Assembly (NCBI GenBank): GCA_964612665.1 | Contig: CAZTCI010000001.1 | Span: 508,896 to 572,895, forward strand | Reading direction: 5' to 3' | Length of the DNA stretch: 64,000 nucleotides | Source: an uncultured Planctomycetales bacterium | Lineage (GTDB): Bacteria > Omnitrophota > Gorgyraeia > Zapsychrales > JAHFFX01 | Part shown: positions 12,001-33,000 of the stretch, piece after piece | Position numbering within the stretch: position 1 is the first letter of the stretch | Layout of the letters: every line of letters starts with the position of its first letter | The notes under the pieces: model-generated | Databases searched by the model: none | The model's input: only the letters and a program-made list of their open reading frames with translations | What the model was told of the DNA's origin: nothing | Position numbers and translations under genes: made by a program

Positions 12001-15000
12001 AACAGGGTGCATATAGCCGGGAGGTAACCATTGGGCCAAATCCTGCCACGTGGGAAGGATGAACAAATTCAACGCAGAATGAATAAATCCTCTTTTTAGC
12101 GATTGCAGTTTATCTAAAGAAACCTTCGAAGGGTCGGACAGCCATTGTTCATATTGCAGATAGTCATCTAATCGGGTGGCCAATTCATAACTCAAAATCT
12201 CCTCGACGCCAAACAAATGTCCTTTGGTACTACGGTTAAAATGGGTCGACACATACCACAGTTCGTCTTCTTTAAACCGGGCCACTCCTTCGACACCCGC
12301 AAAGATTTTCTTGCGTGCGGCCAGGAGATGGATCTCTTCTCTAAATAATTCATGCTCGGGATTGGTATGGTTTTCCCCGATTAAAAACAATCGCGGTGCG
12401 GATTCGGGTTTCAGGCGGACAGCGAGGAAAATTAATGTGCTCAATAAAAACGTCAGGTTTAAACTATTATCGAAACCATGGACGGCAATAAAGAAGCTCT
12501 TGAAATTTTCAGTCTTTTCCAATTTTCTTGACGACAATTCTTTATTGATCTTGTTGCGTTCTGATGACACATAGGCCAGGACAGCATCCAAAAATTTTCG
12601 ATGGATTGAATCTGTGGGTTTTACAATACGGCCATATTCCGCATATAACGATACAGCTTTATCAAAGGAAACTTCCCAACGGAAGCTGACAGTCTTTTGC
12701 CAAACAATGATTTGGCCCCGCCCGACAGATGACAAGAAGGCATTGGCTTTCTCGTCCGACGGGTTTTTCCGCGCCTGCAGCAAAACACACTCTCCATTAA
12801 ATGGAGGATAAAGAACCATCCGGTAAATAAAACCCAAATCACCCCCAAATTTTTGTTTCCTAAATAAATTTTCCAGTGCCTTGAAATGATGTTGTCGGTT
12901 GGAAATATCTCCCCCTCCTTTAGGAAGATATCCGGCAGCAGCATTAATCTTTGACCAAATTGCTTGAACGGCTTTTTGTTTGACATTAAATCTTTCCGCT
13001 ATCTGTTGATCACTTAGACCTTCAACGAAACCATATAAAATATTCAATTGTTTTTCCGTAAATACTGGTTTTGCCACATCGAATTTTGGAAACGGAGGCC
13101 TCCGGTCGACAAGTCCTAACTTTCTCGCTTTTTTGATAAGTTCCCTTCGCTCCGACGTCACAGCCAACACTTTATAAAGTCTCGAAATCTTTGAGCGTAT
13201 ATTGATTGCCGGTGAACTCAGCGCCTGGCCGATCTCAATCGTAGTATTTCCTTTATTAAGCAATCTTAAGATATGAAGTTCAAGCTCACTTAGGATGAAC
13301 GCATGTTTTTTTGCGAAAAGTTGTTTAGGTTTAACCAGCCGCTCAGACGATCCGAAAATCGCCACGCGGTATTCTTCATGCTGATTGAAAAATTTCCAAA
13401 GAAGATAAGGGTAATCATTATTAAAGTCGCGGGGTCCGCTTTTAATTTCCAGATTTAAAAGTTGATGAATTTGGCTCCTTGACTTGCGGATGGTTTCGGA
13501 CCCTGTCTCAAGCTGAGCGGCAATGTCCTTGTCATTTAATCCAGCATAAAGGCCTTTTAGAATGGCTATGTGTCGCGAAGAGAGTTCTTCGACGGACGCA
13601 CAAGATTGAACGCTGCGCGCTATGGCCGCGAGGACAGCGACAAAGATAAAACTGAAATTGGATAAATAATCCGATGGATTTGTAAGGATAAAAAAGTTAT
13701 GCTCTCGCTGCAACCCTGGCAAAAGACTTTGATTATCTCTTTTACGAAAGACTTCAAAGGGTTGAACAAACATAAACTGCGCGCCCGCTGTTCCCCTGCT
13801 AGTTTTAAAAACTTCACTTTGCCTAATCTGATTATTCAACGCATCGAGCGCTTCTTTAAGCGGTTGCGAGGTAATCAAATCTTTCCAGCCTCTTAAGAAG
13901 CCTATCTGTTCGAGCGCGCCAAAGATCCATGGTTCTTCATCAAACACAATAATGGTATCACTAGACCTTAAATCCCTTAATGTATTAAGCAGCCTAACCA
14001 CGACTGGTTGATCGATCCAAAAAGTTCCTTTTAGAATAACAGTCACACTTTCTTGTCCAGCTCGACGTAGAAATTCGACAATATCATCCAGCGCGTTGTC
14101 GATGTGTAACGTTTCCTTAGGGTAAATTCTATTTAGCAAAATTTTTTCTGGCTCCATAAACTGATTCACGAATGATTGCAGCTCCTTATAAGCTCTTTGC
14201 CGGTCTTCATGGTCATAGAGCCGGTCAATTCCGAGGACCAATTGGGCCGGCAGCTCCGCCACAAAAATGTCAACGCCTATTGCGGGATAAATCCGATACG
14301 GTTTTAAGAGACCAACCGCCGCTAAGACTTCTAACTCTCGCCGCCAGGCCTCGGCCAATGGCCCATAATCAACGCTTCCCCGCGATGCCAACCGTCTGCC
14401 TTGTTCTTCAACTATCATGGAAATCGCTTGAATCTGCTGGAGAATTTCTTCTTCGGAAATTATTTTGCCTCCGGTCCGTCTTGTGCTCTTTCGTAACGCT
14501 CGAACCAAAAATATAACCAGCGCGCTAATTGAAATTAGAGCAGCTGCGGCATAAATAAAACCAGTATCAACTAACATCGACGATGATTCTGGATATTTCG
14601 CGTCATAAGTTTTCGCTAATTGATACAACGTCCGCTCTACACGGTCTTTAAGACGGAGGAATTGCCTTTCTGATAGGGTCAATGTCACCATTATCTCTGG
14701 CCAGGAGCATGTCAGAATATGATTATTATTGTTTTTCTCAGCGAAATCACTTTGGCTTGTATCACTGACCGCATCCATAAGGACTTCCAGTTCTAATAGC
14801 GCTTTGACAATTATCTGACTTGTTTCTTCACCTCGACGATAAACATCGGTCATATCTTGTTTGGTTGGCTCCAACCTTTCATCCGTTGAAGGTTCCGGAA
14901 CATTTTCAAGTTCCGTCTCAAAATCAAAAACTTGCTGCTCCAGTTCTCTTCCCTTCTTAACAGCCCAATCCAAGACCGACGCTTTATAAAACAAAAGTAC

Positions 15001-18000
15001 AAATTTCGGCCCGCGCAAATTATGCTTTAAAATATTTAAAATCCTTTCGGCTTCTTCTTGCATCTGGACATAAGAAATCTGGTCTTCATAAATCTGACCC
15101 ATGAGTATCTCAATCAGCTTTCGTTGATCTACATTTATTCTTTCCTCTCTCCAAATTCTCTCGAGGATTGAAGATGTTCCCGACAACTGGACAACCGGCA
15201 TCAGAGTCTCATAAAATTGAAACACCCTCTTTATCATTTCTGATATTTTTTCTGTTCTTTGTCCTTCATGCTGAGGCTTGAACCAAATATCGACTTCCGA
15301 CGTCACAATAAAATTCTTCATCTCTTCGTAATTGGTATTGATCTTTTCTCGAAAACTCTCAATCTTTTCTAATATAACGTTAAAGACTTTGTCCCACCCG
15401 ATTTCAGCTTCGGTTTTGTTTTCATCGGCCGATTTTGTGTCTCCCTCTCGATCCCCTGCTATGCCTTCCGAATGATTTTCAGTGACGATTACCACTATCA
15501 CTGCTCCCACCCACAACATAAAAGAAATGACCGAGAGATCTAAGAAGGAATGCTCATTGTTCCGGTTTCTGTTTCTGAAATTTCTCCTCCGGCCTGATGA
15601 ATTAAATCTTTCTGTCAACCGCCGTAGATCCTCTAAGTTTGCACTCATGCTCAAACCGTAGTCATTAAAAATATCTCTCAGCGTTTCGGTGACTTTGGAA
15701 ATTCCAGAAAAATCGACCTCTTGGCTCAATGAAAGCATTTCCAAGTTATATTGCCGCAGCCAGCCCTGAAATTCCGCGGGGGTGATTCCACGGGATTCCA
15801 AAGCCTCCCAAAGCCGGAGTAATACAATTCCCATTTCTTCGATTGTTTCCGATTGCTGCCGTTCTATTAAATATTCTCCGCTTGTCGCGGGTTCTGGCAA
15901 TCTTGCCGGTTTTTTTCTTGTTTTTTCCGGCCGGGGAATTCTATGGCGAGGAAAGGCATTGTAAACAGCGCGCTGTATATTTACGAGTTCAGTCACTCCG
16001 CTGCTGATGGCATTTTCAGCCGCATGCAATGCCTTTGTGAATTTACTCCGGCTGGAATTGAAAGACTCGAGGAGCCATGGAATAACTTGTTGGTTCAAAA
16101 TTTCTTCACCACGGCGTCTGGCTTCTTCGCTTAAATTAACCTGATGGGATAAAGAAATTCTCTTATTCATCCAGCGGTCTGCGACGACTAATCCTAAGAA
16201 TTTATATTCAGGATACTCATAAAGATAAACACTGTAACGCGGCTCGTCTTCATTCAATTCGACTAACCGGTATGACCTGCCTTCGCCCCGAAAATCTTCA
16301 TAAATTCCTTCACCCAAATCTCTCAAAGAAAACCAGACAAACTCTCCATCTCTAATCTTGAAGATATCCTCCAGCCATCTTCTTTCTTTTGTTATCTGAA
16401 CGAAATACTTTCCGGCCTGCAATTCTTTGGGGGTGGAATTTTGGGGATTAGGTTTCCGGCGTGTGACTAATGTAAACCACAGCCATTCACTCTGATCGCC
16501 GCGTGCCGTAACGATTTTGGCTTTCAGGGAAACATAACCTCGAGTTCCCCATGAATACCAAAGATCAGCGAATCCGCCTAAATACGCGTCTCCGACGTAA
16601 ATTTTATCTAAACGGTAAAGACCTGTAGATACTCTTGGGTCAACAGCTTCAATCCCTTGGCCTTTCTTAATAATCATGTCGAAACCCTTGCGGTGAAAAT
16701 CAGCGATGTCTTTTCTCACATGACTACTCCGCGCTTTAAGCAGCTTTTGTTGCTTTCCTTGAATGCCCCAATAGTGAAGAATCGGGGAACGTTGTAATTT
16801 TCCGCCGATATTTTCTTCAAACCATACCGCAACATACTCGGAATAAACTGAAGACCAGCGCAGCCCTAAGTTTCCATAACGCTTTCGGACTGTAAACGTC
16901 GAATATCTTTTTCCAAAGAGCGGAATCTTTCCGTCGGCGGTAGTTTTAACATTCTCAATCTTAAGCAATTCATATCCTTGGGCAGACCATCGCTGCGCCA
17001 GTTCAAGACTAATGACACTGTATTGGCCCAAATTTTTTTCACGTTGTCCTTCGCGTTTCGATCCTTTAACGACCAGAATTAAACGCTGTTGACGATCGAC
17101 CTCATGCAGCACCATTTCCTGCTTCACTCTTCTCCATAATTTTGTCCACAACCGTATCCAATCTCGACGGCGCGGATAAATCCGTCCAATTTCAATATCA
17201 TTAATAACTCTGGCACTAATGTCTGCCAAAAGGCCGGCGTCTTTTTGGGACATTCCTAATGACTCCCGCACGGCTTTTAATCTCTTCCCTGGTTCTTGAT
17301 AGAAGTGATCCAACAATATCTTCCAGTCTCGCACCCCCCATCTTACCCGTGCCCCTTTTTCTAATCCCTTAATTTTGAAAGGAGTGGTATTGGATAAGTC
17401 AGCGATTTTTTGCGGCGAGAGTTCTAATATATTCCTGAATAACTTTAACTCTCGTCGGGCTTCTTCATACATTGTATTCAACAATAATGCCAAATCATCG
17501 GCTTTCCATCTGGCATTCTTTGACTTTAAATCATTAATTCTATTTCTACTGATATGCGCAAGAGCCGCGAGTTCTTCTGGCGACATTCGCAAAGCTTCCC
17601 GCAATATCTTTAATTGCCGACCGGCCTCTTTATGCAGTTTATTCAATATAATATTCCAACGGTCAACACTCTCCCTAACATGACCATTCTCTAAAGCACT
17701 AATGCGTCTGGCCCTAACCTTGCTCAAAGCACCAACATCTTTTGCCGTCATTCTCAAAGACTTTCTTAATACCTTTAATTGCCGATGGGCCTCTTCATGC
17801 AGGTCCTCGAAGTTCCATAATTCCGATCGGGACATGTTGAGTAATTCTCTGGATCTCTCTAACAGTTCAATCGATTTTTTATCATCTTGCCCCTGTCTTT
17901 GGGAAGAAGCCGCCATGCCAAGAATCACTAAGGATAAAACGGAGTATACCATCCATAAATTGCTTATAATTTGAACAACCGTTAAGATAATAATCGTCGT

Positions 18001-21000
18001 CGGTAAAATGATCAAGATTTGGGCAGATGAGGTTTTGTCGCGATAAGTCTTTTCAAATTTTCTAAGTGATTTCTCGGTTTTAGAAAGGACGTCATTATAT
18101 GAAACAACCATGAAGACCGCTGCTGATACAAACATCAACAACGGCAAAACAAAATGCCCAGTTCCCCGGACACTTTCCCATCCGGTAAAGATCGGCACCA
18201 GAAAGGAATTTTCCACCTCAACATCGGAAGTTGAGGTCATTTTGCTCTGATTTTGCAGGATCCGAGCTATCCGGGAAAGATAGAGAACATAAATAACGCT
18301 TGCGAAACCAATAAGCAACGTGAACAATTCTCCATTGAAAGCAATCATTCCGAAACCAAACAACTTTGTACGATCTTCCATGAATGTTTTAAGGAAATCT
18401 CTCATCTTTTCTTGAATTTGAGATCGAAAGATATCCTGAACCCGGCGAGGCATAATATTCATACGGGTGCCCGCTTGTTTCCATGCTTCAAATTTTTCTT
18501 TGGTGAATTCTGCCATGAGCCATTGATCTTCTTCGATGGTCTTCAACATGCCACCTTTTTGGGGGTCAAACATTTCACCCAAAACTCTTGAAAAGTCATT
18601 CACATCAAAAGCGACCATGCGACCCAGCTTTCCATCATGAGAAAATGTCAGACCGTAATTTTCTCGCCAATTATGAAAATCGCGATCAACCAGTCCATAT
18701 GTCCAAATCCGACGCGTCAAATTCGAGAATTCGTTTTGAATGTGCCGAAGCTCCATTTGCAAAGCACTCACCTCATCCCACTGTTTATGTTTCTCAGAAA
18801 TCTTTATACGACGGGCAATGGCATCCAGCACTTCTCCAACGGGATGCACGCGTTCTTGAACAATCACATAAGGGAAACTGGTAAGTTTCTCATCCACGAC
18901 AATCGTCAAGTTATTTAAAATAGTCAACGTCATGGCAAAAAGATGGCCCAAATGTTCTTTAACCAATAGGTATCCAGGCAACACTTCTCTCTCGAAGTCC
19001 ACGTCGGCCTTCGGGACCTTGATAATAAGATTTGGAAACGCATAGGAGTAATATGCTTTCATCAGCCCGCCTTGGTCCAAATAATGAAAGGTATGACCTC
19101 GTAGAATACCTTCAACGGTGGTGATTCGAATGTGGTCAAGGTGTTCCTGTAAAACAGTATCCTCTATTCCCATTCTACGCCCCCATTGCATCAACCTTTC
19201 AGGCCAGCCCTCCATATAATTGTCCAATAGCGCTTCCAGAAGAGCATCTTTTAAATTGTTCCTGATCCGACGTGATATAGGTTGGAGGTGGCGTTGAATT
19301 AGTTTTTGATATAACCATCTGAGTATTAATATTAGAGTAACAGCAGTAACTGCGATCAACACCCCTACACGCCACCCATGCATCAGCTCGCTAGAAATAA
19401 GCTGGGCGTTGGATTTTTCCGTTGTTACATCAACCTGCGGGGCCGAAACAGATGAAAACATTTCATCCACCAGCCGTTTGGCTTCCTTGGCCGCATCCAT
19501 GCTTGAACTCATTTTTCCCGAAAAAATGGAAATCTCTCGCGGACTTAAATGCTGAACCGTCGTCGGCCGCGCCGCATTCTGAACCGAACTCACCAGAAAA
19601 TCTTTGAGGGTAAAGATCGAACCAATATGGATCGGATTGAAATCGTGGAAGAATCGATGAGCTTCTTCTTTGATTTGGTCAAATGCCGTCACCGTTGGAT
19701 TCCAGATGATATCGCGTCCCAGTAAATCTTTATACTCATCGGGAATTTCTGGAAATTTGCCAACGTTGAGATGATGAATCGAGTGCTTCACATGAGCGAT
19801 AAAGTGCGCATTATTGCCTAAAGGATTGATCCCGACAAACGGCCCGTCCATAATCAAAATACTTTTGCCCCGGAATGCCGGAGGAAGAAGGACGACAGGC
19901 AACTCAAAAACTTCGAATTGATAGTTTTGCTGATTGGCCGGTTCCGCAATGAACCGATTAATATCGCTGTAAACGGCGTAGACAACGGCATCATAGTTCT
20001 TTAATTTTTCCGGAGTTGCCTCCTGAATGAGCACCTGCACATTGAATTCCTTAAGTTTATCAACGGAGATCTCCGCCAGCTTGCGGATGTTCATAAAGTC
20101 TTCCCCAACAAGCAGCGATAATCCCACAGAATTTTGTTTTAACACCTCCGGATACTTTGTCTCGTAAGGCAAATTAAAACGATTTAATAAAGTCAAATAC
20201 TGCTCGGGCGTAACCGCGCTTCCTTCCGCGGCGATTGCATAGTATTGTTCCAAACTCAAAACCGCTTCACCGAAGACACTCAAAAAGCTTTCACGAGAAT
20301 TAATGACTTCTTGGACAGTTTCTGGACTGCGCGGGTGATGATAGCCGCGATGCAAGCGGCGATCCCAATTGCCGGACACGCCGCCGAAGAGTTTGTTGCG
20401 TTCATACAAAGTCACATCGTATCGAGAATCTTGAGCAATAAACCATGCGGCCGTGATCCCGAAGATTCCGCCTCCGATGACAGCGACTTTGCGTTTCGAT
20501 GGAGCAACAAACGCAGAACGGGACGCCGAAGGAGGTATCCCGGCATCGGCACTCAAATCGAAATCAAAGTATGGCTCCTCAAGCATGTCATCCAAATCGA
20601 TTCCCTCGAAGACCTCTCCCGAATTATCATTAGATTGAACAACTTTAGGATTCACGGGTTCTTCATCTTTCCAATTCCATCCGCCCGCTGCGATCTTTTC
20701 ATCAAACAACCGATGCGGATAACGCATAATGACCGCGTTGACGCCGGCGAATCCGCCCATGCCGTCGTGAACATCGTAACGGCCGCGGATGATGTATTCG
20801 CGATTCCAACGCACCGCTCCGTTTTTCTCGTGATAGCCTTGCGCCGCGTCGGGACTGTAGGTCAGCAATTCTTCCAGAGCATCGCGCCAGGCTTGCAAAG
20901 CTTGAATGTAAATGACCGCAGTGCCGATCCCGCCGACTTGCTTGCCTCGCACGCGATAATGATCGACCCGCGGATGTTTGGCCACAGCCAAGACCGATGG

Positions 21001-24000
21001 AATCGGCGCTCCGACGGAAAAATTAAATCTGACATTGCCATCGTTGTCCTGGATTCCTTCTCCAGCGAGCGTAAAGCGATTCGTCAGCGTCTGAACGTGT
21101 TCCAAAAATGTGCCTCGAAATTCCTGCGCGTCACCATGCTGAATCAAGTCGATCATCTCCGGCGTTAGTTTTTTCTGAATGCTCCAGATCACCGCGCCGA
21201 TGTAACGTCGAGTCACTGCCGAGCGAATCATTTTCCCATCGGCATCCAACGGGTGTTCGAAGACCTCCGCGACCACATGTCCCGTTGGGTGATTCAGAAT
21301 CATGGAACGAATTTGACGCGGACGGATCTGTTCGTAGGGCTGATTGACCCACGCGTCGTTATGAACCTGATAAAGTTCAAGGACATTCTCCAACGTCGGC
21401 CAGCGATACACAATCGTAATCCCCTGCTCCGGACGCTCCTCGCGCACGAACAGCGCCAGGTCGTCCAGCGGAATCTGCTCTATATTAGGAAAGAAGCGCT
21501 GCAGGGCATGATTCAATGTCGTGGGGATGTCTTGCCTTTGGAGCGCCAGCGGCGACGGAGCGGTGGACTCAAAATTCTTGATGCGGAATTGATAATATTC
21601 ATCTAAGGTGCTAAACCACGTTGAGAGCGGATGGCGATTGTTCTGGCGCCGAGCCGCTTCAAGAAGGCGGGAAGTTGAGCCAGAGAAGAACATCGTCGTC
21701 AAATGGCCGTTCAGATGGAGAGCTCTGGTATGAAGGATGGATACAACAAGGACTAAAATAATAGCCAAATTCAAAATCATCATCCATCCCCTGTCGTCAA
21801 AACCGTGGATGGCGAGGAAGTAGGTATGGGTGTTAGAATCGGCCGGACGAGTTACATAAGAACTCTGTCTAAGGACGGTCGCAATCAAAGCGAAGGCAAC
21901 GACAATGTATATATTAGAGAAGATACCTCGAACCTTTTTCTGATCTCCTCCGAACGCCTGCTCCATCGTTTTAGTCTCGAGACGGCCGGGATTGAATGGC
22001 GTCCGATCTTCCATCACTTTCCTTAGAATTCTCAACCGCCCGCCCAAGGCCAGTTCGCGGGATTGTCTGGCCGTAATGACATCCACATCCTGATCCGTAA
22101 ATCCGCGGGTTTGGAAATTGGAAATAGGATGCGCGTTAAAATTCTTGAGACGGGAATATTGTGCGTCGGTCAACCGGGCCTTGGCTTCATCCACATAACG
22201 GCCGGACGCAATCATTTGATCGGCTAATCCTTGAGGAGCAAAGACCCCGAATCGGGTCGGATGCTCCCAAACAACAATGATCACTCCCATTGGAAGACTC
22301 GCTAAAAATTCTTCTGTCCATCGCCGCGTCGATTCCAAGGGCGAAATGGTTCGATCGAGTTTGCGCGTTAGCCAAATATAAATATATTCATAAGCAAATT
22401 TTAAAAACACAACGTCCGCCGGCTTTATGTCTCGAACAAACGCTCTCATTTCATCTCTCGACATCAAATCACTCATATGATGATGAAGAGGCGCCAACTT
22501 TTCCAATCGCAGAATCGGATGACCGACGATCCCGACCAATTTTTCTTTCAGTCTTTTAAAACCCATCGTGATATCCCACTCACTCAGCCGATTGTCCACA
22601 GTTGTCATGGACGAAACATAATAACCGGCAAATAAATCAATCCCGGAAAGGATGTTGTGGAGTTGCGTATTGTTACGATTGAAGATCCCGATGGCGGAAA
22701 GGAGTTGTAATTGCAGGAAATAAATTCTGACTTTGATCGGAATCACGCTGTGTACGGTGAGCTGATCCTCACCGAGCCGAATCTGCTCTTCAATTTTACT
22801 GAGGATTTTTCGAACCGATTTTAGTGAATGGAGGAATTTAAATTTGAAAATGGAAACGACCATGAGTAACACGATGGCCAAATTCAAAATCATCATCCAT
22901 ACCCCGTCGTCAAAACCGTGAGTGCCGAGAAAATAGGCTTTGGTGTTGGAATTAGGAACCATGCACGGCATGTTCCACCCGATCATCATGTATCGGTTAA
23001 AAACAGCGATATCATGGTTCCCATCAGGTTTGACACCTCCAGTCATGTGTGTTATTCTTCCTTCACCGGAGGGGGACAACCAATGCATAAACGAAAGGAT
23101 AAAAACATGAACGCCATCAACATGACGGACATCGTCCGCAAGTCGATGCAAGAACTTGTTGTCCCTGAGTTGAAAATCTTGCAGGGTGATGTTCAGAGTC
23201 TCTAGAATGACAATCTTGAGATCAAGGCTGATCTTCGGATCCTCAATAACCGTGTCGACAATCTGGAAAAATCTTTGAACAGCCGGATGGATTCTCTCAA
23301 CAGCCGGATGGACTCCCTCGAGAAAAGGCTGGATAACTTGGATAAAAGGGTTGACGGCCTTGAAAGGCAAATTCATAGCATGCGCGAGGATTTTAAGCTC
23401 GCGCTCGATATTCATGAGCGGCTCACTGCGCTTGAAGTCAAAATTTCTCATCATAATTAGGCAGTGGTTTTGTTGACGAATCATCGCCGGGCCGATTTCC
23501 TCAAAGTTATATAAAGGAAATCGGCCCGTTGTTTTTTGGTTGCTGTATACGATTTTATAGAACGCCGTCACTGTCGAATCCCAGATCATATCGCGCCTAA
23601 GTAAGTCTTTATATCCCATCCCACCGGATTGACCATACCAAATGAAATAAACCAATGCCCATAAAACCAAGGCCACATCAATTCCAACCATGTATGATAA
23701 ATATGCCGATTGAACGCTGTTTTTATTTTGATCTGGCTCAAACGCAAACAAGCGCACGGACAGACGCGAATTCATATTCCTTAAAAGTTCATTTTGCTCA
23801 TTTATGATTTTTTCCAAATTCAACCGTCTCGCGATGGCCGCCGCGCCCACCAGTGCGACAATAACTTGGATCTCCCGTTGACCGGGCAGCCAGTTTTCCT
23901 GAAAATGCAGACGATTCATCTTCTTGATCAATTCTTTCTTCAAATTTAATTTTATTGATCGAATTTTGCCGGCCCGGGACGACAGAGGCACGTCAAAACT

Positions 24001-27000
24001 TTTGACTTCCACAAAAACTAATCGGTGGTTAGAGTCGATCAACACAGCGTCGATTTCGAACGACTTGTTTTCTCGATGGGGATCAGCGATTTCTTTATTC
24101 AAACTCACTACTTTGAAATGAAAATCCATCAGCAACTTGTGTACCGCCCGCAACTCATTGAGCGTGCCAAATCGTAACCCTTTTTTGATGCGGTAAAGAG
24201 CTTTCTCGATACCGTCCTCATTTAGGAATCTTTCCACCAACGAGGCCTCATTCACATTCAACGTCGGTTTCACCTCAGACCAAAGTTGTTGAATGTACGT
24301 TCGCCTGTCTTTCTGATGCTGTTTCCAAACCCGCTGATAAAATCCGCCATCAATCCATCCGTGCTCTAACGATAATCCCAGCCATCGCTCTTGTTTTTCC
24401 CACCGAGAAAAGATAAGCGGCTGGAAGAATTCTCGCGCCTGCAAAAAGGCCTGCACATCTTCATTGAGAAGCTCGTCGGAGTTCTTTAAAGGAGAAACAG
24501 CGCGGCTCAATTCATGCCGCAACAATAGCTTGAGCCATAACCGGCCGGTGCCAGGTTGCAATTTATTGAACATCTTCACAATCCTCTCGACCTGCCGGTG
24601 AATCAAAATGACGTGGTGTTGCGGATCATAGTCAGACATCAGGTCGATCAGTTCTCCCGTTGCTAATGGACACAGAATATGGTCTGCCCACAAAACCGTT
24701 GTAACCTTGGCCAAACGACTGTAATCCAAATTAAAGCTCTCAATGTCTTTAACAGCGATATCAAACCTTTCCGGAAAGTAAAACGCCTTCCCGTCGGAAA
24801 ACTTCAATGTAAAATGTTCTCGCCAGTTTCCTTCGGCCAATGAAACTCTCTGCGTATCTTCGTCGGTTGACGATGATAAGGCTTGTTGAATGTCGTTGAA
24901 CAACGCGTCCGTCGCTCGCAGCGACGGGCCTGATGGCGTCTTTAAATAAACCCCTTCACCTTCTTTAATCAACTCCGGCGCAACAGCCTCAGGCCATATC
25001 GCCCAGTGCCGATGAGACATCTGCACAGCCGCCGCAAGAGCGGCAGACATCAAAACAAGACTTACAATGCCAGCCCAATGCCAAACAATCATTACAACCG
25101 CCACAATTAAAATAATCCCCATGAATAAACTTTGATTTTGGTCTTCGTTCTTTTTATCGACGGATGCGCAGGATGCGTTATGACCGTTGCCATCCGCCAA
25201 AACCAATTTGTGCCGGCGCCAAAATTCATCGAGCTTCTCGGGATAGTTCACGACCGTTTTTACATCCAGCAGTGAGAATTCTTTGAATAAACTAAAGGCC
25301 ATATTGACCAATTGCTGTTCCGTGACTGGAAGTGACGGTTTATAAAAACTTAAAACCGCGTGTTTAAGCATCCCTTTTTTGCCGTCGGTCGCAAATCCGG
25401 ATTTTTTCTTCATATCCGTCAGCGCCTTGCGGATCGCCCAAATTAAATCCTGGTTGTTTTCAAAAGCCCTGGCTTCTTCCGTCGATATAAATACAGCCTC
25501 CTGAATAGGAACGATGATTGTTCCATCACCGTTCTCAAAAGGTCCTGTCAGTTTAAACAATTTCCGTTTTTGATCGACCTCATAAACCCTGGCCATCGCA
25601 TAAATATTCGTCATCACATAAATTGCCCATTGCCGGCTAATCAAATCTAAATCTTCCGCTGACAACCATAAATGAATAGGGAAAGACGGCTTATGTTCGT
25701 GGTAGCCCATCGAAATTTTATTGGGATTGCTTCTGCCTAGGATAGCGGCCGCTTGTTTATGGGTGATGCCGGGTAAAAAGGCTTTAATCAAACGGAAGCG
25801 CTCACGCATCCCCATCCATTTATCTAAGACCCTCAACGACGGCTGGCCGCTTGCAGCTCGTCGCTGGTTAATTTCCACCACCCAGTGTGCGATTGTTCGT
25901 TTAGGAATATTTGTCATCTGCGCGAGCTCTTCGGCCCAGGTGATGGTCAATTGTTCAGCCATGGATTCAACTAACTCTTGGCCCTGGGCATGTGTTGTTT
26001 GTGGACGTCTTTGTGATTGCTCAACCCATCGCTCTAAGAAAGCAGTATCCTCGGCGCTTAAGGTAATTTTTAAAATAGACAACAGGTTTTGGACAGCTTG
26101 CGGTTTCGGAATAGTAAAGCCTCTTTCCCATCGGTCGTATCTTGCTTTGCGGATTTCCATTCCGGGCATAGCATTGAGCATAAAGTCAAGCTGACGTCTC
26201 GATATAGTTTCGTCCTGGCGTTCTTTCTCGATGAGTTCGAAGACGCGTTTCAGGAAATCTCTGTATGCCGCATCCCGGGTCCACGGCAAGTTGCCGCGCG
26301 TCAATTCCACAACAGCCATTACCCAAAAGATACCAAGCCCGAGCAGTCTAACGCCCCAACCGCTCCCCAACGTCTCCCATCCAATCACCGCCTTCGCTTC
26401 ATGATCGGATTTTCTTTCATCGGAATCAACCGGCGAAATTGAAAAATGATTGGCGTTTATCGATGGGCCATTTTCAAAATCCAAATACTGAATAAACTGT
26501 TCAAATCGCTTCCAGAAAACAATGGTGACATCTATATTCTTCGTCGGATGATTGGCTTTGATAGTCCAGAATCCGAAGGCCGTGGTCCATTTCAATGACT
26601 CGATAATTTTAAAATCGCGGGACAAAACATGCTGCAAATGGTAGGCATCTTCCATAGAAAAATGCGCCATTTTTCCAAACTGATAAATGGGCCCTTCAAA
26701 CGGCAGATGGAATTCCCAATGTCCTTCGGAACTTTTCGGCAAATTCGCAAAAAGATCCGCCATTTGCGCACTCAAACATAAGCTATTATTACCGCCCACC
26801 ACAATAACATGGTGCGCGTAAGGCCATAGCTCGTCGGTTAAGTACTCTGATTTATAACCCGCATGACTTAAATAACTATCATCTCCGTTCAGATTCTCAC
26901 TGACATTTTCAAAAACGGCAGTGATCCTGGGATTCTCTAAAAGCTTATTGATAGACGAAGCGGCTGTCTTCAAAGGATCAAACTCTTCGTTAGTATGAAC

Positions 27001-30000
27001 GATCACCAACGTCCATGGGTTAGGAACTTTTTTAGACAAATGCGCGGACAAATGATCTGAAATGGTTTCTTCCAGCGCACTCTGCCAGATATATCGTTGA
27101 GAACGACCGGCAAGAAGTTCGATTCTTCTGGATGAAGAAACGATATTTATATTAAGAAAATCAACATTCTGTTGCCTGTGGATTTGCTGTGCCGCCAGCT
27201 GGACAACGCTATGTAGGATAAGGCCGGCTAACGCGGGTTGATTGTTCAGTTTCAAAAGACCGACGACAAATCTGCGGGGAAGATAAATGACGGGGCCATT
27301 GTCATTCCATTCCGTCGCAGCGACAGCCACATGACGCCAGTTGTCCGCATAAAGGAATGGTTGGCTCTCATCTTCGCGATCGCGAACCAAGATCAATTGA
27401 CTTCGAAGAAGGATGTCAAACAAATCGCTCGCCGCGACGAAATCAAACAATCCTCCCCGAATTTGATCCCACGGGATATTCATCAACGCACTTAAACTCG
27501 CGTCGAGAATTGAGCGATGCAACTCCATGTGAGTTAATAACGGTTCAACATAACGTTCATTCCTTCGACGAACTTTGTCGATTAGTTCCTGGATTTTCTT
27601 GTACTCTATATTCCATGCCTTCACTAACCTGCCGTTCTCATGATTTGTCATGACACCTGCGGCGGCCATCAGCATGAGGGAAGCCGTCACCGCAATGAGA
27701 CTAAAAGACCAACCACCGCCGAGCTGCTCCCATCCCAACAAAGCCTTCGCTTGATGATCTTTGTGATTAAATCTTTTATCGTCTGAATTAACCAGGGGCG
27801 TAATATCTTGAGCCATGGGCAGCGGCTCGATATGATTTCCGTTCGTGGATTTTTCTCTTGGCTCCCGTAAAAGTGAAGCCTCGTAGCCAATACCTCGATC
27901 TTTTCCATTATTTGGCCATAAACGATATTTCTGCAAGAACGAAGGGTCCTTAAGACTCTTTTTCAAATTTTGAATCATGATTCGACTCTTTATATCGCTT
28001 TTGAGAAATTCATTCCTTAACCTCAGAATGATATTCACAAACTGCTGTTGAGTTACAAGGACTCTTGTTTCTTTAAGCATCTGGTGTCCATAATATTTTA
28101 TGGCCATGCTGATGAGTTGCTTGATATCAGACTTTCCACCGTATGAATTCTCACTATATTCCTCAATAACTTTTCTGATCGCTTCGATCAAACCTGGATC
28201 ACCTTCCACCCGTCGATATTCTTCTTCTGTGATATAAACTGCATTCTCCTCGGGAAGCAGCATGACATCACCATTCGCAAACGGGCCTTCTATTTTTAAA
28301 AGACCGTCCCGCTTGGCTATCACGTGGCCAACTTTATAATAACGGTGTTCGACATATAAAACATCATTCTTAACGGGGTTAAAGCGGCGTCCAGGCATTT
28401 GAAAACGCCACAGAGGATATAAATTCTTTTCCAATTTTGAGATGATCTTAAGACTTATTGGATAGAGCGTATTCTTGCGAGGCAATCTCGCGCCACGGAT
28501 TTTCGCAACGGAAACTTCACATATCTGAACAAGACGCTTATCGGAGATCTCCATTATTTTGGGATTGTCCATAAGGCGATTGAGCGCTTCGCGCGCCTCG
28601 ATGAGTTGTTTAAGCACCGGCCGCATCTTGGCGATCACGTTTTCAGATGGAGTGGCTTTTTGTAGACGATATAGCTTGGCATCACGAGAAACTTTGGAAC
28701 GCTGATTGATCTCTGAATCCGTAATGCCCAGTTGGTTGGCTTGCGTGAGCAGTTGAACCAGTTCTATTCGAAGTTTTTTGAGATCTGGCCTTTGTTCTTT
28801 GAAATATTCCGTCAGGGCCATAAGCAATTTAGAGATAGTCGATGCGTGCGGCAACGTCCTATTTCCGGCTGCAATCATACTGATCGTGGTCTGATCCACC
28901 CCAGATAATTTTGCCAAACTCTCCTGATTTAATCCTTGCTCAAAAGCGTTCGTCATCAAGACGAGTACACTTCTAAATTGTTCCGCCGGAGATCCTGCCA
29001 TAGGCAGTCGATCCAATTTACTTTCAATCGATGCAATCGTATCTCGCCTTAATTGCGCCGGAGCCTCTCCTAATATTTTGCGCAGCGTTTTGTCATCAAT
29101 ACCCAATCTCGCCCGGATGGCCCGTCCCGAATATTGGCCTTCCTTATTAAGTCTCTTGATGTAATTCTGAAGGTCAACGGGAAGAATCACCATCACAGCC
29201 AATCCCGACAGGATTTTTAATACAATTATTATTCCTTTGAGGCCGATCAAAAGCCACGTGGATTCGAGGGTGATCGAGGAGAGTTTCTCCGTGTTTTCGT
29301 TTGAAGATTTTTTCCCAGGTTTGTCTTCATACTGCGCCACTTCTTTTAATTTCGACGCCAAACGATCAATATAGTCCTGAGCCTCGTCGGTGACGACGTA
29401 ACCCTGAGCTTCCAGGACATCCAAAACTTCCAGCACAAAAGCGGCCATCATCAAATAATGAATCAAATTTCTACTTTTCCAAGAAGACCATTCTCGAGGA
29501 GAATTTTCTTCTACATAGATCGGTTGAGGAATCGTTTCAACACGGCCTCCCACTTCTCTCAATTGCGAATGAATATTCTCAATCTTAGGAAGATAATCAA
29601 CATACCGCCACAACACATTTTCTTCTGTCTCGATATCCACCCCTTCGCGGAAATAATTCCAGGCCGTCACGATCATTTTCTGATCATAATCTCGCTTTGA
29701 AACGATTCCTTCCCGTCGAAAAACGTACTCACGATCAATCGTGCCCGAAATCATATGCATATAATACAGATCAATATATCGTCGGCCGCCGTTATTCCAT
29801 GGTTTTAAGTCCAAGTTGAATCGTTGATTGGCCTGGAAAATAACCTCGGGGTTAATCAATGTTCTATACAATAGAAGTTCCGTACCAATGGAATCGATGG
29901 TTCTCGTATCCGTGTCGATGAGTATAATTCGGTCTGTTTCCGGAGATAAAATCCCCTCGTCGTGCCAGTATTTGACAAAAAGGACCGCTTGAAGTGAATC

Positions 30001-33000
30001 TTGCCGAACGGCTTGGTCATTGTGCATTGTCGCCCAAACACTATGCATGCGCTCTTCAGGAAATTCTTCTGTAATTCTGGTGTAAATCTTTGACATTTCA
30101 AAAAGCGGTTCGGCTCCTGCTCGCAAGAACACAATACGCGTGTTCTTCCGGTATTGCTTATTCTCTTCGTGGGATCGAGGATATTCTTTGATACGCATGA
30201 ATACGTGTTGTATGAAATCCATCAATCCCAGTCTGCGCTCGGCGCCATGACCCAAAAATGTCGTCAAATGTTTAGTATCCAAATAGTGTTGATACGCTTT
30301 GGCAAACATTGCTTGATCCCCCGCAGAAAAGATTCGTCCGAGGGATTGAATACTCTGATTACGCGCGCGAACATTATCTTCATGTAATCTGAGTCGATTT
30401 AATCTAACCGAGGCAATGGCCGCAAATCCTGCCAGGATTTTAAAGATCAGCATTACACCCTTGATGCCGATTATGATCCACGCGGCGTCGAGGGTGAGGG
30501 CGGGAAGCTTTCCAACATCAGATGTTGGAAAGGGCGGGTTCAACCTGCGGGGTTGATGTCCGTTGGCATGCTTCTCTTGCGGATGGGTGAACTTTTCCGA
30601 GGAAAACTTCTTTATATCTTGGTCGCTCCACTCTTCTCCAAACACCTTTTTTAAATCCGATTTATTTCCGTTCTTTCCGTTCCTCTCCTTCTTTGCCAAA
30701 TCGTCATAGAATTTTTTCATGATCTCATCTTGCCGACGATCGAACTCCTCGGCGGAGAGAGACCAGTCATCTCGCTCTCGTTTGTATGCTTCCTCCGGTT
30801 TCCGATTCTGATTTAACCAAACGTCCTTAAGAACATCGTAGAGATTACACAACATGCGATTCCCCGCAAATTGCCTTAATCCCTCCCGATTGTCCTTATT
30901 CTTCAATATAATGCGGGCCATTTTAGTCTTCTCGAGATCCTGCTTGAGAAGGTGAACTAGGGCTTCATGGCGTCCGAGGTTTATTTTGGCCTCCCCGAAC
31001 ATGTCTTTCACAATTTGAACAAAAAGCTCAGGACCGATCTCCCTCATCGATAGCCAGGCATGCAAGACGATTTCTACTTTTTCTTCCTCGCTTTGAATAC
31101 GATGATGCCAAATCCAGATTTCATCAGAATTTTTGAGACCGCCAGAGGCATGGGAAGATCGAGAAAGGTCCCCATAGATCACACCGACGACGAAGAAGAC
31201 CACGATCAACATTTGTATCGGCGAGAGAACCGTCGACTCCACTCCCAATCCCAAGGCATTCATGGCCGTTGGTTTCCCGGGCCCGCGGAATGCTGTGAGT
31301 TCATTCAACCTGCGGGGTTGATGCCCGTCGGCAATTTCATTCGAAGACTTGATGTGGCGGAATCCTCGGTCGGAGATGTTCAATGTGAACCCATCCTCAT
31401 CAGAGAAACTACTGTAAAACAAAATCTCCCGGGCCAAATACGTTTCGTTAAACTCGATGACCAGCGCCTCACGCTTTTGGCCCATCTCCAACAGATCGTT
31501 CCACAAGAATGTTCTTGAAAAACGAAGTTCGCCAGCACCGATACGAAACGTAATGATGATGTCATTTCCGATGAGCCGGCCTTTCACAAAATAGATCCCT
31601 TGATCTTCCGTCACAATCCGGATTCTGGAATGTCTCAACAGCGTTGAAATCGGCAATTTGATTACTTCTCTGATATGATAAACTTTCTGGAGGGAATATT
31701 CGGCGTAGAAGGACAGCTCGTCTGCATCTGGAAGATGAAGGATAAAGTCATGAATCGGCGGCAATCCGCAGGCGGAATTGGTGAGCATGGCCATGATCAT
31801 AAAACGGATCAGCGTCGGGCTGCGAGTGAAACCAGCGACCTTAAGCCAGAATAGCCATACGATCATTGCCGTAATCAAAACGGCGAGGAAATATGCTAAG
31901 AAAGCAGCTGATAATTTCTCCTCAGAAGACGTCTTCCACCAGGTATATTTTTCCTTCATCTCATGATAGGAATTCAAAATAAGATTTAACGTTCCCTTCA
32001 CGCTTTGTTCCGTTGTCCCCCGCTCGGTGCTGATGTCTTGAATCGTCCATCCATTTAAGATCAGCGTAATAATCTCGCGCTGCGGCGGCGACATTTGATT
32101 CAATAGGGCCCGACGATGTGGATCCAATGATTGAGAATCGCGGATAATTTCGCCCAGGATTTGTTTCCGTTGAGAAGCACCCGCGCCTTGGAAATGAATG
32201 TTGATGCCTTCATGCAGCGGATATAATTCATCGCACCTTTCTTCCCGTTCAATTTGTTCTCTTAGGGGTTTCAAAGACAATTCGTTCTTAAGATCACGGT
32301 ATCTGAGTAATCCTCGACGGGCGGTGATGATCACCGTAGTCCACTTAATCTGCAATAGTCGGGCCACATCCGCCGGATGATAACCTGCAATGGCAAACGG
32401 AAGAATTTCTCGCTCCTTTTCCTCCAGCTGATCAAAGATCTCTCGATGGTCCAAGAGAAAATCTTGTTTAACCTCTCTGAGAATATTGATGAATTCTCGA
32501 CGGTTGGGAGATTTCAGGAAGAAATTGAATTCCGCATCTCGATCGTTGCGGATAACCATCATGGCCAACATGCCGGGTAAAAGGAGTATGACCAAAAAGT
32601 AAAGGCCCTGTATTTCTATAAAAATGATCTGTGTAAACGCGATCAAGACAAGCACGGACGGGAATACGGCGGAAAGTTTTTCCACCTTCCGATCTTGCGA
32701 TGTGGGGGCCAACTCTTTCTCAACAAGCTCCCCACGATATACCATCCGCTGAACAAGGCCCATCGGATAATTGATTTCTTTTAAGTCACCCTTATAGGCT
32801 TCACGCCGGATAACTTCATTGAGCAGGCGAAGTTTCTTTTTGATCTTTTGGACCTGATCTTTTTCTTGCGCACTTAAACTTTGATGATTAACGTATTTTT
32901 TGTGAAGTGTATAATCGTAAACGCTGAGCGAGATCGTCTGTTGTTCTTCTCCAACAATAACGACATTACCTTGATCCCCGGCTGGTTCGATGAAGAATTG

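What the first reader, a model, noticed from the sequence alone, without database searches (positions are those of the whole stretch)
23030..23539. A third nested + strand cassette has a promoter, RBS, coiled-coil ORF and a perfect intrinsic terminator, all read through by the giant ORF
A TTGACA-17-TATTCT promoter and a GGAGG RBS precede a coiled-coil ORF that is codon-aligned with the giant ORF. It is followed by a 13-bp-stem terminator with a T-tract. The terminator lacks a U-tract in the opposite orientation, so it should stop only antisense (+) transcripts and not the giant mRNA. A complete unidirectional transcription unit inside a coding region of the opposite strand is unusual. It could generate antisense RNA against the giant transcript.
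Basis: partly seen in the sequence, partly recalled or inferred. Interest (0 to 1): 0.75.

Follow-up and report, generated by a model that had tools for sequence, protein, structure and literature searches.

The report
Real gene nested backwards in giant gene
A small, evolutionarily conserved gene with its own promoter and terminator sits backwards inside a giant (>64 kb) bacterial gene whose reading frame has been kept free of stop codons straight through it, and the same arrangement recurs in two unrelated giant genes, so it is not a chance ORF.

Summary
At 23030-23537 (+) there is a TTGACA-17-TATTCT promoter with an extended TG, a GGAGG ribosome-binding site, a 125-codon coiled-coil ORF and a terminator. 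That terminator is the strongest terminator-like hairpin on either strand of the 64 kb window. All of this lies inside a minus-strand frame with no stop codon in 21,333 codons.

The ORF is not fortuitous. It aligns end to end with an uncharacterised family of 90-155 aa proteins and keeps their conserved N-terminal (VxPEL) and C-terminal (REDFKLAIDIHERLAALEAK) motifs.

Two other family members (L017, L002) are also nested antisense, in the same codon-aligned register, inside long ORFs that are not detectably related to this one. Most other family members are free-standing.

A nested/free pair shows selection on the small protein, not on the giant frame. The nested copies lack TTA/CTA/TCA codons, which would be stops in the giant frame.

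Two toxin-antitoxin (TA) operons (BrnTA, VapBC) are nested the same way in this window.

This copy carries an internal TAG, which reads as Leu CTA in the giant frame, so its protein is probably recently inactivated.

An antisense-RNA regulatory role is possible but untested. Nothing like this is mentioned in the two giant-gene papers searched.

The parts
23030..23058 (+). Sigma-70-type promoter: -35 TTGACA (23030-23035), 17-nt spacer with TG at 23050-23051, -10 TATTCT (23053-23058).
   Evidence: A promoter of the same design lies upstream of low-GC homologs L007, L017, L016, L022-26 and L029.
23070..23074 (+). Shine-Dalgarno GGAGG, 8 nt upstream of ATG 23083.
   Evidence: read directly from the sequence.
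23083..23460 (+). Coiled-coil ORF of an uncharacterised small-protein family. It has 125 codons plus a final TAG. An alternative start at ATG 23107 fits the N-termini of the family better.
   Evidence: No Pfam, NCBIfam, PHROG or PADLOC family scores above its cut-off.
23203..23205 (+). In-frame TAG that interrupts the + ORF. On the giant strand it reads as CTA (Leu).
23488..23537 (+). Intrinsic terminator: perfect 14-bp stem (23488-23501 / 23515-23528), 13-nt loop, T-tract TTGTTTTTT (23529-23537). It has no U-tract in the opposite orientation.
1..64000 (-). Giant ORF of more than 21,333 codons with no stop, running off both ends of the window. It resembles the Omnitrophota-type giant genes: many membrane-spanning segments and many different domains.
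   Evidence: Literature.
22953..23549 (-). Approximate stretch of the giant frame that is read through the antisense cassette (a 'passenger' peptide). Its bounds are set by sequences repeated elsewhere in the giant gene: 22850-22952 resembles 21737-21839, and 23550-23610 resembles 19671-19731.
23641..23697 (-). Hydrophobic, TM-like helix of the giant protein, 33 aa upstream of the cassette.
22846..22902 (-). Hydrophobic, TM-like helix of the giant protein, 43 aa downstream of the cassette.
10709..11325 (+). Sister nested cassette 1. It has a TTGACA promoter (10709), brnT (10801-11067) and brnA (11071-11325). Both genes are codon-aligned with the giant frame.
38147..38842 (+). Sister nested cassette 3. 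It has a TTGACA-17-TATACT promoter (38147), a vapB-like gene (38200-38391) and a PIN-domain vapC (38375-38842).

Best explanation
The region is a genuine, self-contained small gene: promoter, ribosome-binding site, ORF and Rho-independent terminator. It belongs to a conserved but uncharacterised family of about 100-aa coiled-coil proteins. It lies on the strand opposite to a giant gene of the Omnitrophota type, which encodes many domains and many membrane-spanning segments.

The giant reading frame runs straight through the cassette as an unconstrained 'passenger' segment of about 200 codons. This segment sits in a loop between two hydrophobic helices.

Reading both strands is possible because the two frames are codon-aligned. 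In that register the small gene's stops read as Leu or Ser on the giant strand. Giant-frame stops would arise only from TTA, CTA or TCA codons in the small gene, and these have been avoided by synonymous choice.

Selection therefore acts on two things: the amino-acid sequence of the small protein, and only the openness of the giant frame.

In this particular copy a single TAG interrupts the small ORF. It is silent or conservative for the giant frame (CTA, Leu). The small protein is therefore probably recently inactivated here, unless the TAG is a polymorphism or a sequencing error. The promoter and terminator are still intact, so an antisense transcript of roughly 470 nt is still expected.

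What is shown: the anatomy, family membership, recurrence in other long ORFs, the codon register, the stop avoidance, and the direction of selection in one related pair.

What is inferred: that the cassette is transcribed, that the read-through peptide is tolerated as a loop, and how the cassette came to be there (insertion of the cassette, or fusion of two flanking ORFs across it).
For: Anatomy:
- The terminator is unique in the 64 kb window.
- Three of the four + strand TTGACA-N17-TANNNT sites precede the three + strand cassettes.

Family membership:
- The HMMER search of 1.84 billion representative proteins gave 1355 hits, including about 17 end-to-end matches to proteins of 89-155 aa.
- Alignment A1 shows invariant P20, E104, R105 and E110 and the motifs IQDxVxPEL and REDFKLAIDIHERLAALEAK. 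The window ORF keeps all of them.
- Free-standing copies with their own promoter and ribosome-binding site exist in L001 and L007.

Recurrence:
- In L017 an intact copy with a TTGACA-17-TATAGT promoter lies antisense inside a 6363-aa ORF that carries PGM/PMM and HAD domains.
- In L002 an intact copy lies antisense to a frame that stays open across the whole 2.2 kb contig.
- All three nested copies are codon-aligned (my frame arithmetic on the coordinates; for the window).
- The flanking giant proteins are not detectably homologous to each other.

Direction of selection:
- Nested L002 and free-standing L007 were compared over 88 aligned codons.
- Differences by + codon position are 16, 5 and 41.
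- In the + frame 33 changes are synonymous and 20 are not. In the antisense frame 8 are synonymous and 45 are not.
- A TTA codon in L007 is TTG in L002.

Stop avoidance:
- The nested copies have 0 TTA, CTA or TCA codons.
- The host giant frames use these codons at 4-7% of all codons, and TTA makes up 41-49% of Leu codons in L017 and L002.
- Free-standing low-GC copies carry 2-8 of them within the ORF, and 5-13 when 80 nt of flank on each side is included.

Sister cassettes and position:
- BrnTA and VapBC are nested in the same way in this window.
- The cassettes lie between TM-like helices, at distances of 25/45, 33/43 and 9/92 aa. Only 5% of random segments have a helix within 65 aa on both sides.
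Against: - There are no expression data, so promoter and terminator function are inferred from sequence alone.
- The window copy has a premature TAG, so 'functional protein gene' does not hold here as it stands.
- The codon-usage score does not separate the two frames over this cassette: 8.3 for the + frame and 8.8 for the giant frame. It does separate them over the TA cassettes.
- The selection test used a different pair of sequences (L002 and L007), not the window copy. No close relative of the window exists in the collections searched.
- L002 is only 2.2 kb, so calling its antisense ORF 'giant' is an extrapolation.
- No target-site duplication or terminal repeat marks an insertion.
- The GC content equals that of the flanks. 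The route of origin is therefore open.
Confidence: 0.7

Rival explanations
1. The cassette has been domesticated as a cis-antisense regulator. Its main product would be the roughly 470-nt RNA, which pairs with the giant mRNA. It would tune the stability, processing or local translation of that mRNA, or cause transcriptional interference. The coding capacity would then be dispensable, which would explain the TAG.
For: - The promoter and the unidirectional terminator are intact even though the ORF is broken.
- The terminator confines antisense transcription to the cassette.
- Two of the three nested copies keep strong promoters.
Against: - Complementarity is an automatic consequence of nesting.
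- The other nested copies keep intact ORFs, and in the one pair tested selection acts on the + protein.
- L002 has no recognisable promoter.
- The sister cassettes are ordinary protein-coding TA operons.
- The single TAG, with no further decay and all family motifs intact, looks recent rather than like a long-standing non-coding state.
Confidence: 0.15
2. The cassette is a recently arrived selfish or mobile cassette in decay. In this view a mobile small gene landed in the giant gene, like the two TA operons. It survived only because that copy happened to leave the frame open. It is now an eroding pseudogene with no role for either partner.
For: - Family members sit in integrative elements (tyrosine integrase, D12 methylase and primase in 6 loci) and next to a UPF0236 transposase.
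- TA operons, which are classic mobile cargo, are nested alongside.
- The ORF carries an internal TAG.
- About 0.4-0.7% of 170-250-codon windows in the codon-aligned antisense frame are open by chance.
Against: - A typical family member would introduce 5-13 in-frame stops, so a single lucky insertion is improbable, and three in one window much more so.
- GC content equals that of the flanks, and no target-site duplication or terminal inverted repeat was found.
- There is no match in phage, plasmid or viral collections.
- The nested copies in L017 and L002 are intact, and in the one pair tested (L002 against free-standing L007) substitutions fit selection on the small protein.
Confidence: 0.2
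3. The + ORF is a chance mirror image. A coiled-coil-like segment of the giant protein could give a Leu/Glu/Lys-rich open frame on the other strand, with promoter-like and terminator-like motifs arising by accident.
For: - Codon-aligned antisense of Leu/Glu/Lys-rich sequence tends to stay open.
- The total number of promoter-like hits in the 20 kb scanned is not above the shuffled expectation.
- Codon scores of the two frames are similar here.
Against: - End-to-end homologs share non-repeat terminal motifs, some of them as free-standing genes.
- The giant-frame translation of this stretch has no homologs.
- The terminator is unique in the window and correctly placed after the stop.
- The promoter architecture is shared with homologs.
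Confidence: 0.02

Closest known systems
Embedded antisense overlapping genes (OLGs) reported in E. coli (bioRxiv 10.1101/2020.11.18.388249; the named examples nog1, asa and pop are from my own knowledge)
   Same: A short ORF lies wholly inside a longer ORF on the opposite strand, with its own expression signals.
   Different: In those cases, as I recall them and not checked in the paper, the embedded ORF is the young partner, without homologs, overprinted on an old gene. Here the embedded gene is the old, conserved partner with free-standing homologs. The long frame is the one that merely passes over it. Whole operons (TA pairs) are nested as well.
Omnitrophota giant genes: 'Archaeovorin'-type (West-Roberts et al. 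2023, bioRxiv 10.1101/2023.11.21.568195) and the 'multi-enzyme' class (Nielsen & Lui 2026, bioRxiv 10.64898/2026.06.07.730766)
   Same: The host ORF fits this kind. It is longer than 64 kb without a stop and has many TM-like segments. It has weak, divergent SecA-DEAD hits, and carries HATPase_c, methyltransferase and many other unrelated Pfam domains. The host ORF in L017 carries the PGM/PMM and HAD domains typical of that class.
   Different: Term searches of both papers found no mention of genes on the opposite strand inside the giant ORFs ('antisense', 'opposite', 'nested'). The taxonomic origin of this window could not be established.
Toxin-antitoxin and other self-promoted cassettes in chromosomal integron arrays
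   Same: Small cassettes carry their own promoter, are often inverted relative to the surrounding array, and are interspersed among repeated boundary sequences. TA cassettes are proposed to stabilise such arrays (from my own knowledge).
   Different: No integrase, attC sites or cassette boundaries were found here. The surrounding DNA is one continuous translated frame, not an array of separate ORFs.
Cis-encoded antisense RNAs in bacteria
   Same: A convergent transcript would be fully complementary to an mRNA, and its length would be bounded by its own terminator.
   Different: Here the antisense unit is a protein-coding gene of a conserved family. No regulatory effect has been shown.

Membership tests
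Intrinsic (Rho-independent) terminator | A GC-rich stem-loop followed directly by a U-tract, shortly downstream of a stop codon. | tested here: met
   The stem is 14 bp and perfect with 9 GC pairs. The tail is TTGTTTTTT and the hairpin starts 27 nt after the final TAG. The fold has z = -4.6 and the hairpin is unique in the 64 kb window.
Intrinsic (Rho-independent) terminator | It actually terminates transcription, and does so in one direction only. | not testable with these tools
   This needs Term-seq or in-vitro transcription. The sequence shows no U-tract in the opposite orientation.
Sigma-70-type promoter | -35 and -10 hexamers with a 16-18 nt spacer, placed upstream of a gene. | tested here: met
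   TTGACA-17-TATTCT scores 10 of 12 and has an extended TG. It ends 25 nt before the ATG. The same design is found upstream of homologs.
Sigma-70-type promoter | Transcription initiates there in vivo. | not testable with these tools
   No expression data are available.
Unnamed small coiled-coil family (VxPEL ... HERLAALEAK) | Length of about 90-155 aa, the N-terminal motif IQ[DE]xVxPE, central R-L-D-type repeats, and the C-terminal motif REDFKLAIDIHERLAALEAK. | tested here: met
   Alignment A1. The window ORF is 27-45% identical to 18 members and keeps all four invariant residues.
Unnamed small coiled-coil family (VxPEL ... HERLAALEAK) | An uninterrupted ORF. | tested here: not met
   There is an internal TAG at 23203-23205. 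The nested copies in L017 and L002 are intact.
Omnitrophota-type giant gene | A very long uninterrupted ORF with numerous transmembrane segments. | tested here: met
   More than 21,333 codons without a stop. There are 83 hydrophobic segments by a Kyte-Doolittle scan.
Omnitrophota-type giant gene | A divergent SecA DEAD domain, and a mosaic of unrelated enzyme and regulatory domains. | tested here: inconclusive
   SecA_DEAD scores 23.2 bits against a cut-off of 24.6, and P-loop_SecA 19.7 against 27. HATPase_c, methyltransferase, transketolase, DAO and HTH domains all pass their cut-offs.
Omnitrophota-type giant gene | It is encoded in an Omnitrophota genome. | not testable with these tools
   The window holds no marker genes. 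The source was not found among the GTDB representative genomes or in the protein collection.
Embedded antisense overlapping gene (E. coli OLG type) | The embedded ORF arose de novo by overprinting an older gene. | tested here: not met
   The embedded gene has free-standing homologs in other lineages. The overlying giant segment has no homologs.
Type II toxin-antitoxin cassette | A two-gene operon with a recognisable toxin and antitoxin. | tested here: not met
   The cassette holds a single gene with no toxin or antitoxin domain. The neighbouring cassettes do qualify: the PIN domain scores 36.4 bits against a cut-off of 23.6, CopG_antitoxin 37.2 against 28, and BrnT covers its full profile but stays below cut-off.
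Cis-antisense regulatory RNA | A demonstrated effect of the antisense transcript on its target mRNA. | not testable with these tools
   Only the complementarity follows from the sequence.

The most novel reading that the evidence does not exclude
Giant ORFs of this type may be kept as one unbroken translated frame across anything that lies inside them. Whole foreign or neighbouring genes on the opposite strand would then have their antisense stops purged and be absorbed as loop or spacer segments.

One possible reason is that continuous translation protects a transcript of more than 60 kb from polarity or Rho-dependent termination. In that case each stop removed would shorten the untranslated gap, which gives a stepwise selective path.

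Giant genes would then grow by swallowing genes. They would also act as harbours for functional nested genes, including addiction modules that could stabilise the repeat-rich giant gene against deletion.
Probability: 0.25. Interest if true: 0.9.

Novelty: new variant of a known kind. Interest (0 to 1): 0.72.

Why it matters
Bacterial genes are almost never fully nested antisense inside another translated gene. The few claimed cases are young, homolog-less ORFs.

Here conserved genes lie inside a giant ORF whose frame has been kept open through them. These include complete toxin-antitoxin operons with their own promoters. The same small-gene family shows the same arrangement in three giant or long ORFs that are not detectably related.

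This gives a concrete and testable handle on two open questions:
- How giant genes of 100 kb scale are built and maintained. The candidates are accretion of foreign DNA or fusion of ORFs, followed by purging of stops.
- How much of a giant 'protein' is functional domain and how much is tolerated passenger sequence.

It also has a practical consequence. Gene callers report the giant ORF and suppress the nested genes, so such genes are systematically missing from protein databases.

Tried and rejected
- Homologs of the giant protein around the cassette (22000-24501) and of its SecA-like part (42301-43800): none among 5.8 billion proteins. Orthologous sites with or without the cassette therefore could not be compared.
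- Source contig: it was not found in the GTDB representative genomes, even though the search pattern matches the window sequence. Exact look-ups of the nested VapC and BrnA proteins also found nothing.
- Curated families for the coiled-coil protein (Pfam, NCBIfam, PHROGs, PADLOC): only generic coiled-coil matches below cut-off.
- Cluster look-up of the closest homologs: unnamed proteins on short metagenomic contigs.
- Viral contigs, phage records and plasmid records: no relative of the cassette.
- Rfam and tRNA scans of the window: nothing.
- Target-site duplications or terminal inverted repeats around the cassette, and shared boundary motifs among the three cassettes: none. The exception is the 200-nt repeats of giant-gene modules that flank VapBC.
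- A fourth TTGACA-N17-TANNNT site at 42542 (+): no gene follows it, so it is a chance match.
- Vestigial starts or ribosome-binding sites in front of the sense-oriented HTH domains, as a test of the idea that sense-strand small genes were absorbed too: no convincing signal.
- Alternative genetic code as an explanation for the stop-free frame: rejected. The other five frames are full of stops, and the nested genes end at stops where their homologs end.
- Literature: the two Omnitrophota giant-gene papers do not mention antisense or nested genes. Two further full-text searches listed no report of such nesting.
Full report
**What is in the sequence**

The minus strand of the whole 64 kb window is one open frame of 21,333 codons with no stop. 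It runs off both ends of the window. The other five frames carry 849-1344 stops each.

The coding signature of this frame is even along the window. G makes up 31% of first codon positions and 16% of second positions. It is therefore a real giant gene, not an accident.

Its translation has 83 hydrophobic TM-like segments. It carries a mosaic of unrelated Pfam domains:
- several HTH_3/Xre domains, Sigma70_r4 and GerE;
- HATPase_c and methyltransferase domains;
- transketolase parts and the N-terminus of a DAO-type oxidoreductase;
- weak SecA-DEAD hits.

This matches the published descriptions of Omnitrophota giant genes: numerous TM regions, divergent SecA DEAD domains, and 'multi-enzyme' architectures that include PF08241, PF02518 and PF07517. 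The taxon itself could not be tested.

**The cassette**

On the + strand the elements lie as follows:

| Element | Coordinates | Detail |
|---|---|---|
| -35 box | 23030-23035 | TTGACA |
| Spacer | 23036-23052 | 17 nt, ends in TGT |
| -10 box | 23053-23058 | TATTCT |
| Ribosome-binding site | 23070-23074 | GGAGG |
| Start codon | 23083 | ATG (second candidate at 23107) |
| ORF | 23083-23460 | ends in TAG |
| Internal stop | 23203-23205 | TAG |
| Terminator | 23488-23528 | perfect 14-bp stem, then TTGTTTTTT |

The exact pattern TTGACA-N16-18-TANNNT occurs only five times in the window. Three of the four + strand hits lie just upstream of + strand genes.

My own hairpin scan found this terminator to be the only strong terminator-like structure on either strand of the 64 kb window. 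The sense strand of the giant gene has none comparable. The opposite orientation of the hairpin has no U-tract.

The ORF is exactly codon-aligned with the giant frame. The stem is 14 bp, not 13. The '125-aa product' needs read-through of an internal TAG.

**The ORF is a real gene family**

A word-indexed search found one weak relative. The exhaustive HMMER search of 1.84 billion representative proteins found 1355 hits. Many are generic coiled coils, but about 17 are small proteins (89-155 aa) that align end to end.

Their alignment shows non-repeat motifs at both ends: IQ[DE]xVxPEL and REDFKLAIDIHERLAALEAK. Four residues are invariant, and the window ORF keeps all of them.

No curated family covers these proteins.

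Free-standing members exist:
- L001, in Ca. Anammoxibacter, lies between carA and a GT9 glycosyltransferase and has its own ribosome-binding site.
- L007 has a TTGACG-17-TATAGT promoter and lies next to a UPF0236 transposase.
- Six loci place the gene in an integrative element with a tyrosine integrase, a D12 methylase and a primase.

A TTGAC[AG]-N17-TAnnnT promoter 15-45 nt upstream is typical of the low-GC members. The promoter in the window is therefore part of the gene unit and not a chance motif.

**The nested arrangement recurs**

Of 49 loci recovered by DNA-level scans, two more are nested.

- In L017 (a 92 kb contig, 32% GC) an intact copy with a TTGACA-17-TATAGT promoter lies antisense inside a 6363-aa ORF. 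That ORF carries PGM/PMM and HAD domains.
- In L002 (32% GC) an intact copy lies antisense to a frame that stays open over the whole 2.2 kb contig.

Both are codon-aligned with the long frame, as in the window (my frame arithmetic on the coordinates).

The long proteins that flank the three copies show no detectable homology to one another. The arrangement is therefore not one inherited locus.

The window also holds two further nested + strand cassettes, each with a perfect TTGACA promoter:
- BrnT/BrnA at 10709-11325;
- a VapB-like gene with a PIN-domain VapC at 38147-38842.

**Which frame is under selection**

L002 (nested) and L007 (free-standing) are about 78% identical in DNA. They were compared over 88 aligned codons.

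| Measure | Result |
|---|---|
| Differences at + codon positions 1 / 2 / 3 | 16 / 5 / 41 |
| + frame: synonymous vs non-synonymous changes | 33 vs 20 |
| Codon-aligned antisense frame: synonymous vs non-synonymous | 8 vs 45 |

The small protein is conserved. The overlying frame is merely kept open.

Keeping it open has a visible cost in codon choice.
- Giant-frame stops would arise from TTA, CTA or TCA codons in the + gene.
- All nested copies have none of these codons.
- The host frames use them at 4-7% of all codons. TTA alone makes up 41-49% of Leu codons in L017 and L002.
- Free-standing low-GC homologs carry 2-8 of them in the ORF, and 5-13 when 80 nt of flank on each side is included.
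- At one site a TTA in L007 corresponds to TTG in L002.

Over the two TA cassettes the codon score of the giant frame collapses to about -10.7, against a mean of +8.1. The + frame wins over VapC. Over the coiled-coil gene the two frames score alike, 8.3 against 8.8. This is as expected when GAG/CTC and AAG/CTT codon pairs mirror each other.

**State of this copy**

The internal TAG is CTA (Leu) on the giant strand. Any single-step precursor of it (CAG, AAG, GAG, TAT or TAC) gives Leu, Ile or Val there. The nonsense change is therefore invisible or conservative for the giant protein.

No other decay is seen. There are no frameshifts, and all family motifs, the promoter, the ribosome-binding site and the terminator are intact.

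I read this as a recent inactivation. A polymorphism or a sequencing error cannot be excluded without reads.

**Position within the giant protein**

Sequences repeated elsewhere in the giant gene bound the cassette-specific DNA to roughly 22953-23549:
- the TM module at 22850-22952 resembles 21737-21839;
- the 21-aa fragment at 23550-23610 resembles part of the DAO-like domain at 19671-19731.

TM-like helices lie 33 and 43 aa from the ends of the cassette. For the BrnTA cassette the distances are 25 and 45 aa, and for VapBC 9 and 92 aa. Only 5% of random segments have helices within 65 aa on both sides.

VapBC is flanked by 200-nt direct repeats, 84% identical, that encode a TM module.

In L017 the cassette abuts a repeated linker motif, DRKNDGG.

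Nested genes therefore sit at junctions between modules. This fits tolerance of an unstructured loop. It fits equally well with origin by insertion at a junction and with fusion of two ORFs across an intervening gene.

No target-site duplication or terminal repeats were found, and the GC content equals that of the flanks. I cannot decide between these routes.

**Comparison with what is known**

- Embedded antisense overlapping genes have been claimed in E. coli. As I recall those cases, the embedded ORF is young and has no homologs. Here the polarity is reversed.
- Term searches of the two giant-gene papers found no mention of opposite-strand or nested genes.
- Integron cassette arrays share the feature of self-promoted, inverted TA cassettes among repeats. 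They are not a single translated frame, and no integron features were seen here.
- A cis-antisense regulatory role remains possible, but no evidence for it was obtained here.

**Verdict**

The finding is real and more interesting than a chance ORF. A conserved small gene with full expression signals is nested antisense in a giant gene. It is one of three such cassettes in the window, and two further instances of the same family occur elsewhere.

The mechanism I commit to is dual use of the DNA. Protein-level selection acts on the nested gene. Only stop avoidance acts on the giant frame, made cheap by the codon-aligned register. My confidence in this is about 0.7.

Transcription, translation of the passenger segment and the route of origin are inferred. 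The proposed antisense-RNA function is untested.

Noticed in passing
window 10709-11325 (+): A complete BrnT/BrnA toxin-antitoxin operon lies antisense inside the giant ORF. It has a TTGACA promoter at 10709, a GTG start at 10801 and a ribosome-binding site plus ATG at 11071. Both genes are codon-aligned with the giant frame and contain no TTA, CTA or TCA codons.
   Followed up: partly
window 38147-38842 (+); flanks 37709-37908 and 38915-39114: A complete vapB-like/PIN vapC operon with a TTGACA-17-TATACT promoter lies antisense inside the giant ORF. vapB is in the codon-aligned register and vapC is shifted by +1. The cassette is flanked by 200-nt direct repeats, 84% identical, that encode a TM module of the giant protein.
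   Followed up: partly
window 30540, 31305, 35184 (TCAACCTGCGGGGTTGA); 33519, 34116; 49334-49366: Short GC-rich hairpin sequences recur inside the giant ORF. In the giant frame they encode small conserved peptides (QPRRLN; SSPT(S/P)GVGKVEKL; THLHLxGVDG) next to TM helices. The one at 49334-49366 is a perfect 14-bp hairpin. They could be REP-like or MITE-like elements that are read through, or conserved peptide motifs. This was not resolved.
   Followed up: partly
window 1-64000 (-): The giant protein contains only 0.2% cysteine, far below typical bacterial proteins. Trp and Tyr are at normal levels.
   Followed up: no
window 43951-44250 / 44953-45252 and neighbouring repeats (44488-45677): A tandem duplication of about 1 kb, 75% identical at the protein level over 241 aa, lies inside the giant ORF. 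It includes an Xre-type HTH domain.
   Followed up: no
window 23550-23610 vs 19671-19731: A 21-aa fragment (GYKDLLRRDMIWDSTVTAF) abuts the terminator side of the cassette. It resembles the C-terminal half of the DAO-like FAD oxidoreductase domain encoded 4 kb away. It looks like a truncated duplicate left by a rearrangement at the cassette boundary.
   Followed up: partly
L017 9964-10065 and 11350-11451: A perfect 102-nt direct repeat duplicates the promoter -10 region and the first 26 codons of the nested gene, 1.4 kb away inside the same long ORF. The second copy has a shortened promoter spacer and no remainder of the gene. It is either a recent rearrangement or an assembly artefact.
   Followed up: partly
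L017 1145-20236 (-): The 6363-aa host ORF carries a recurrent D-G-G motif (DRKNDGG, VDGGRD, RRDGGRN and others) at apparent module boundaries, one of them next to the nested gene. A double-glycine motif could be a processing site for the C39-type peptidases that the papers report in giant proteins. This is speculative.
   Followed up: no
window 35810-35838 (-): There is one perfect TTGACA-N17-TANNNT match on the sense strand of the giant gene. It could be an internal promoter.
   Followed up: no
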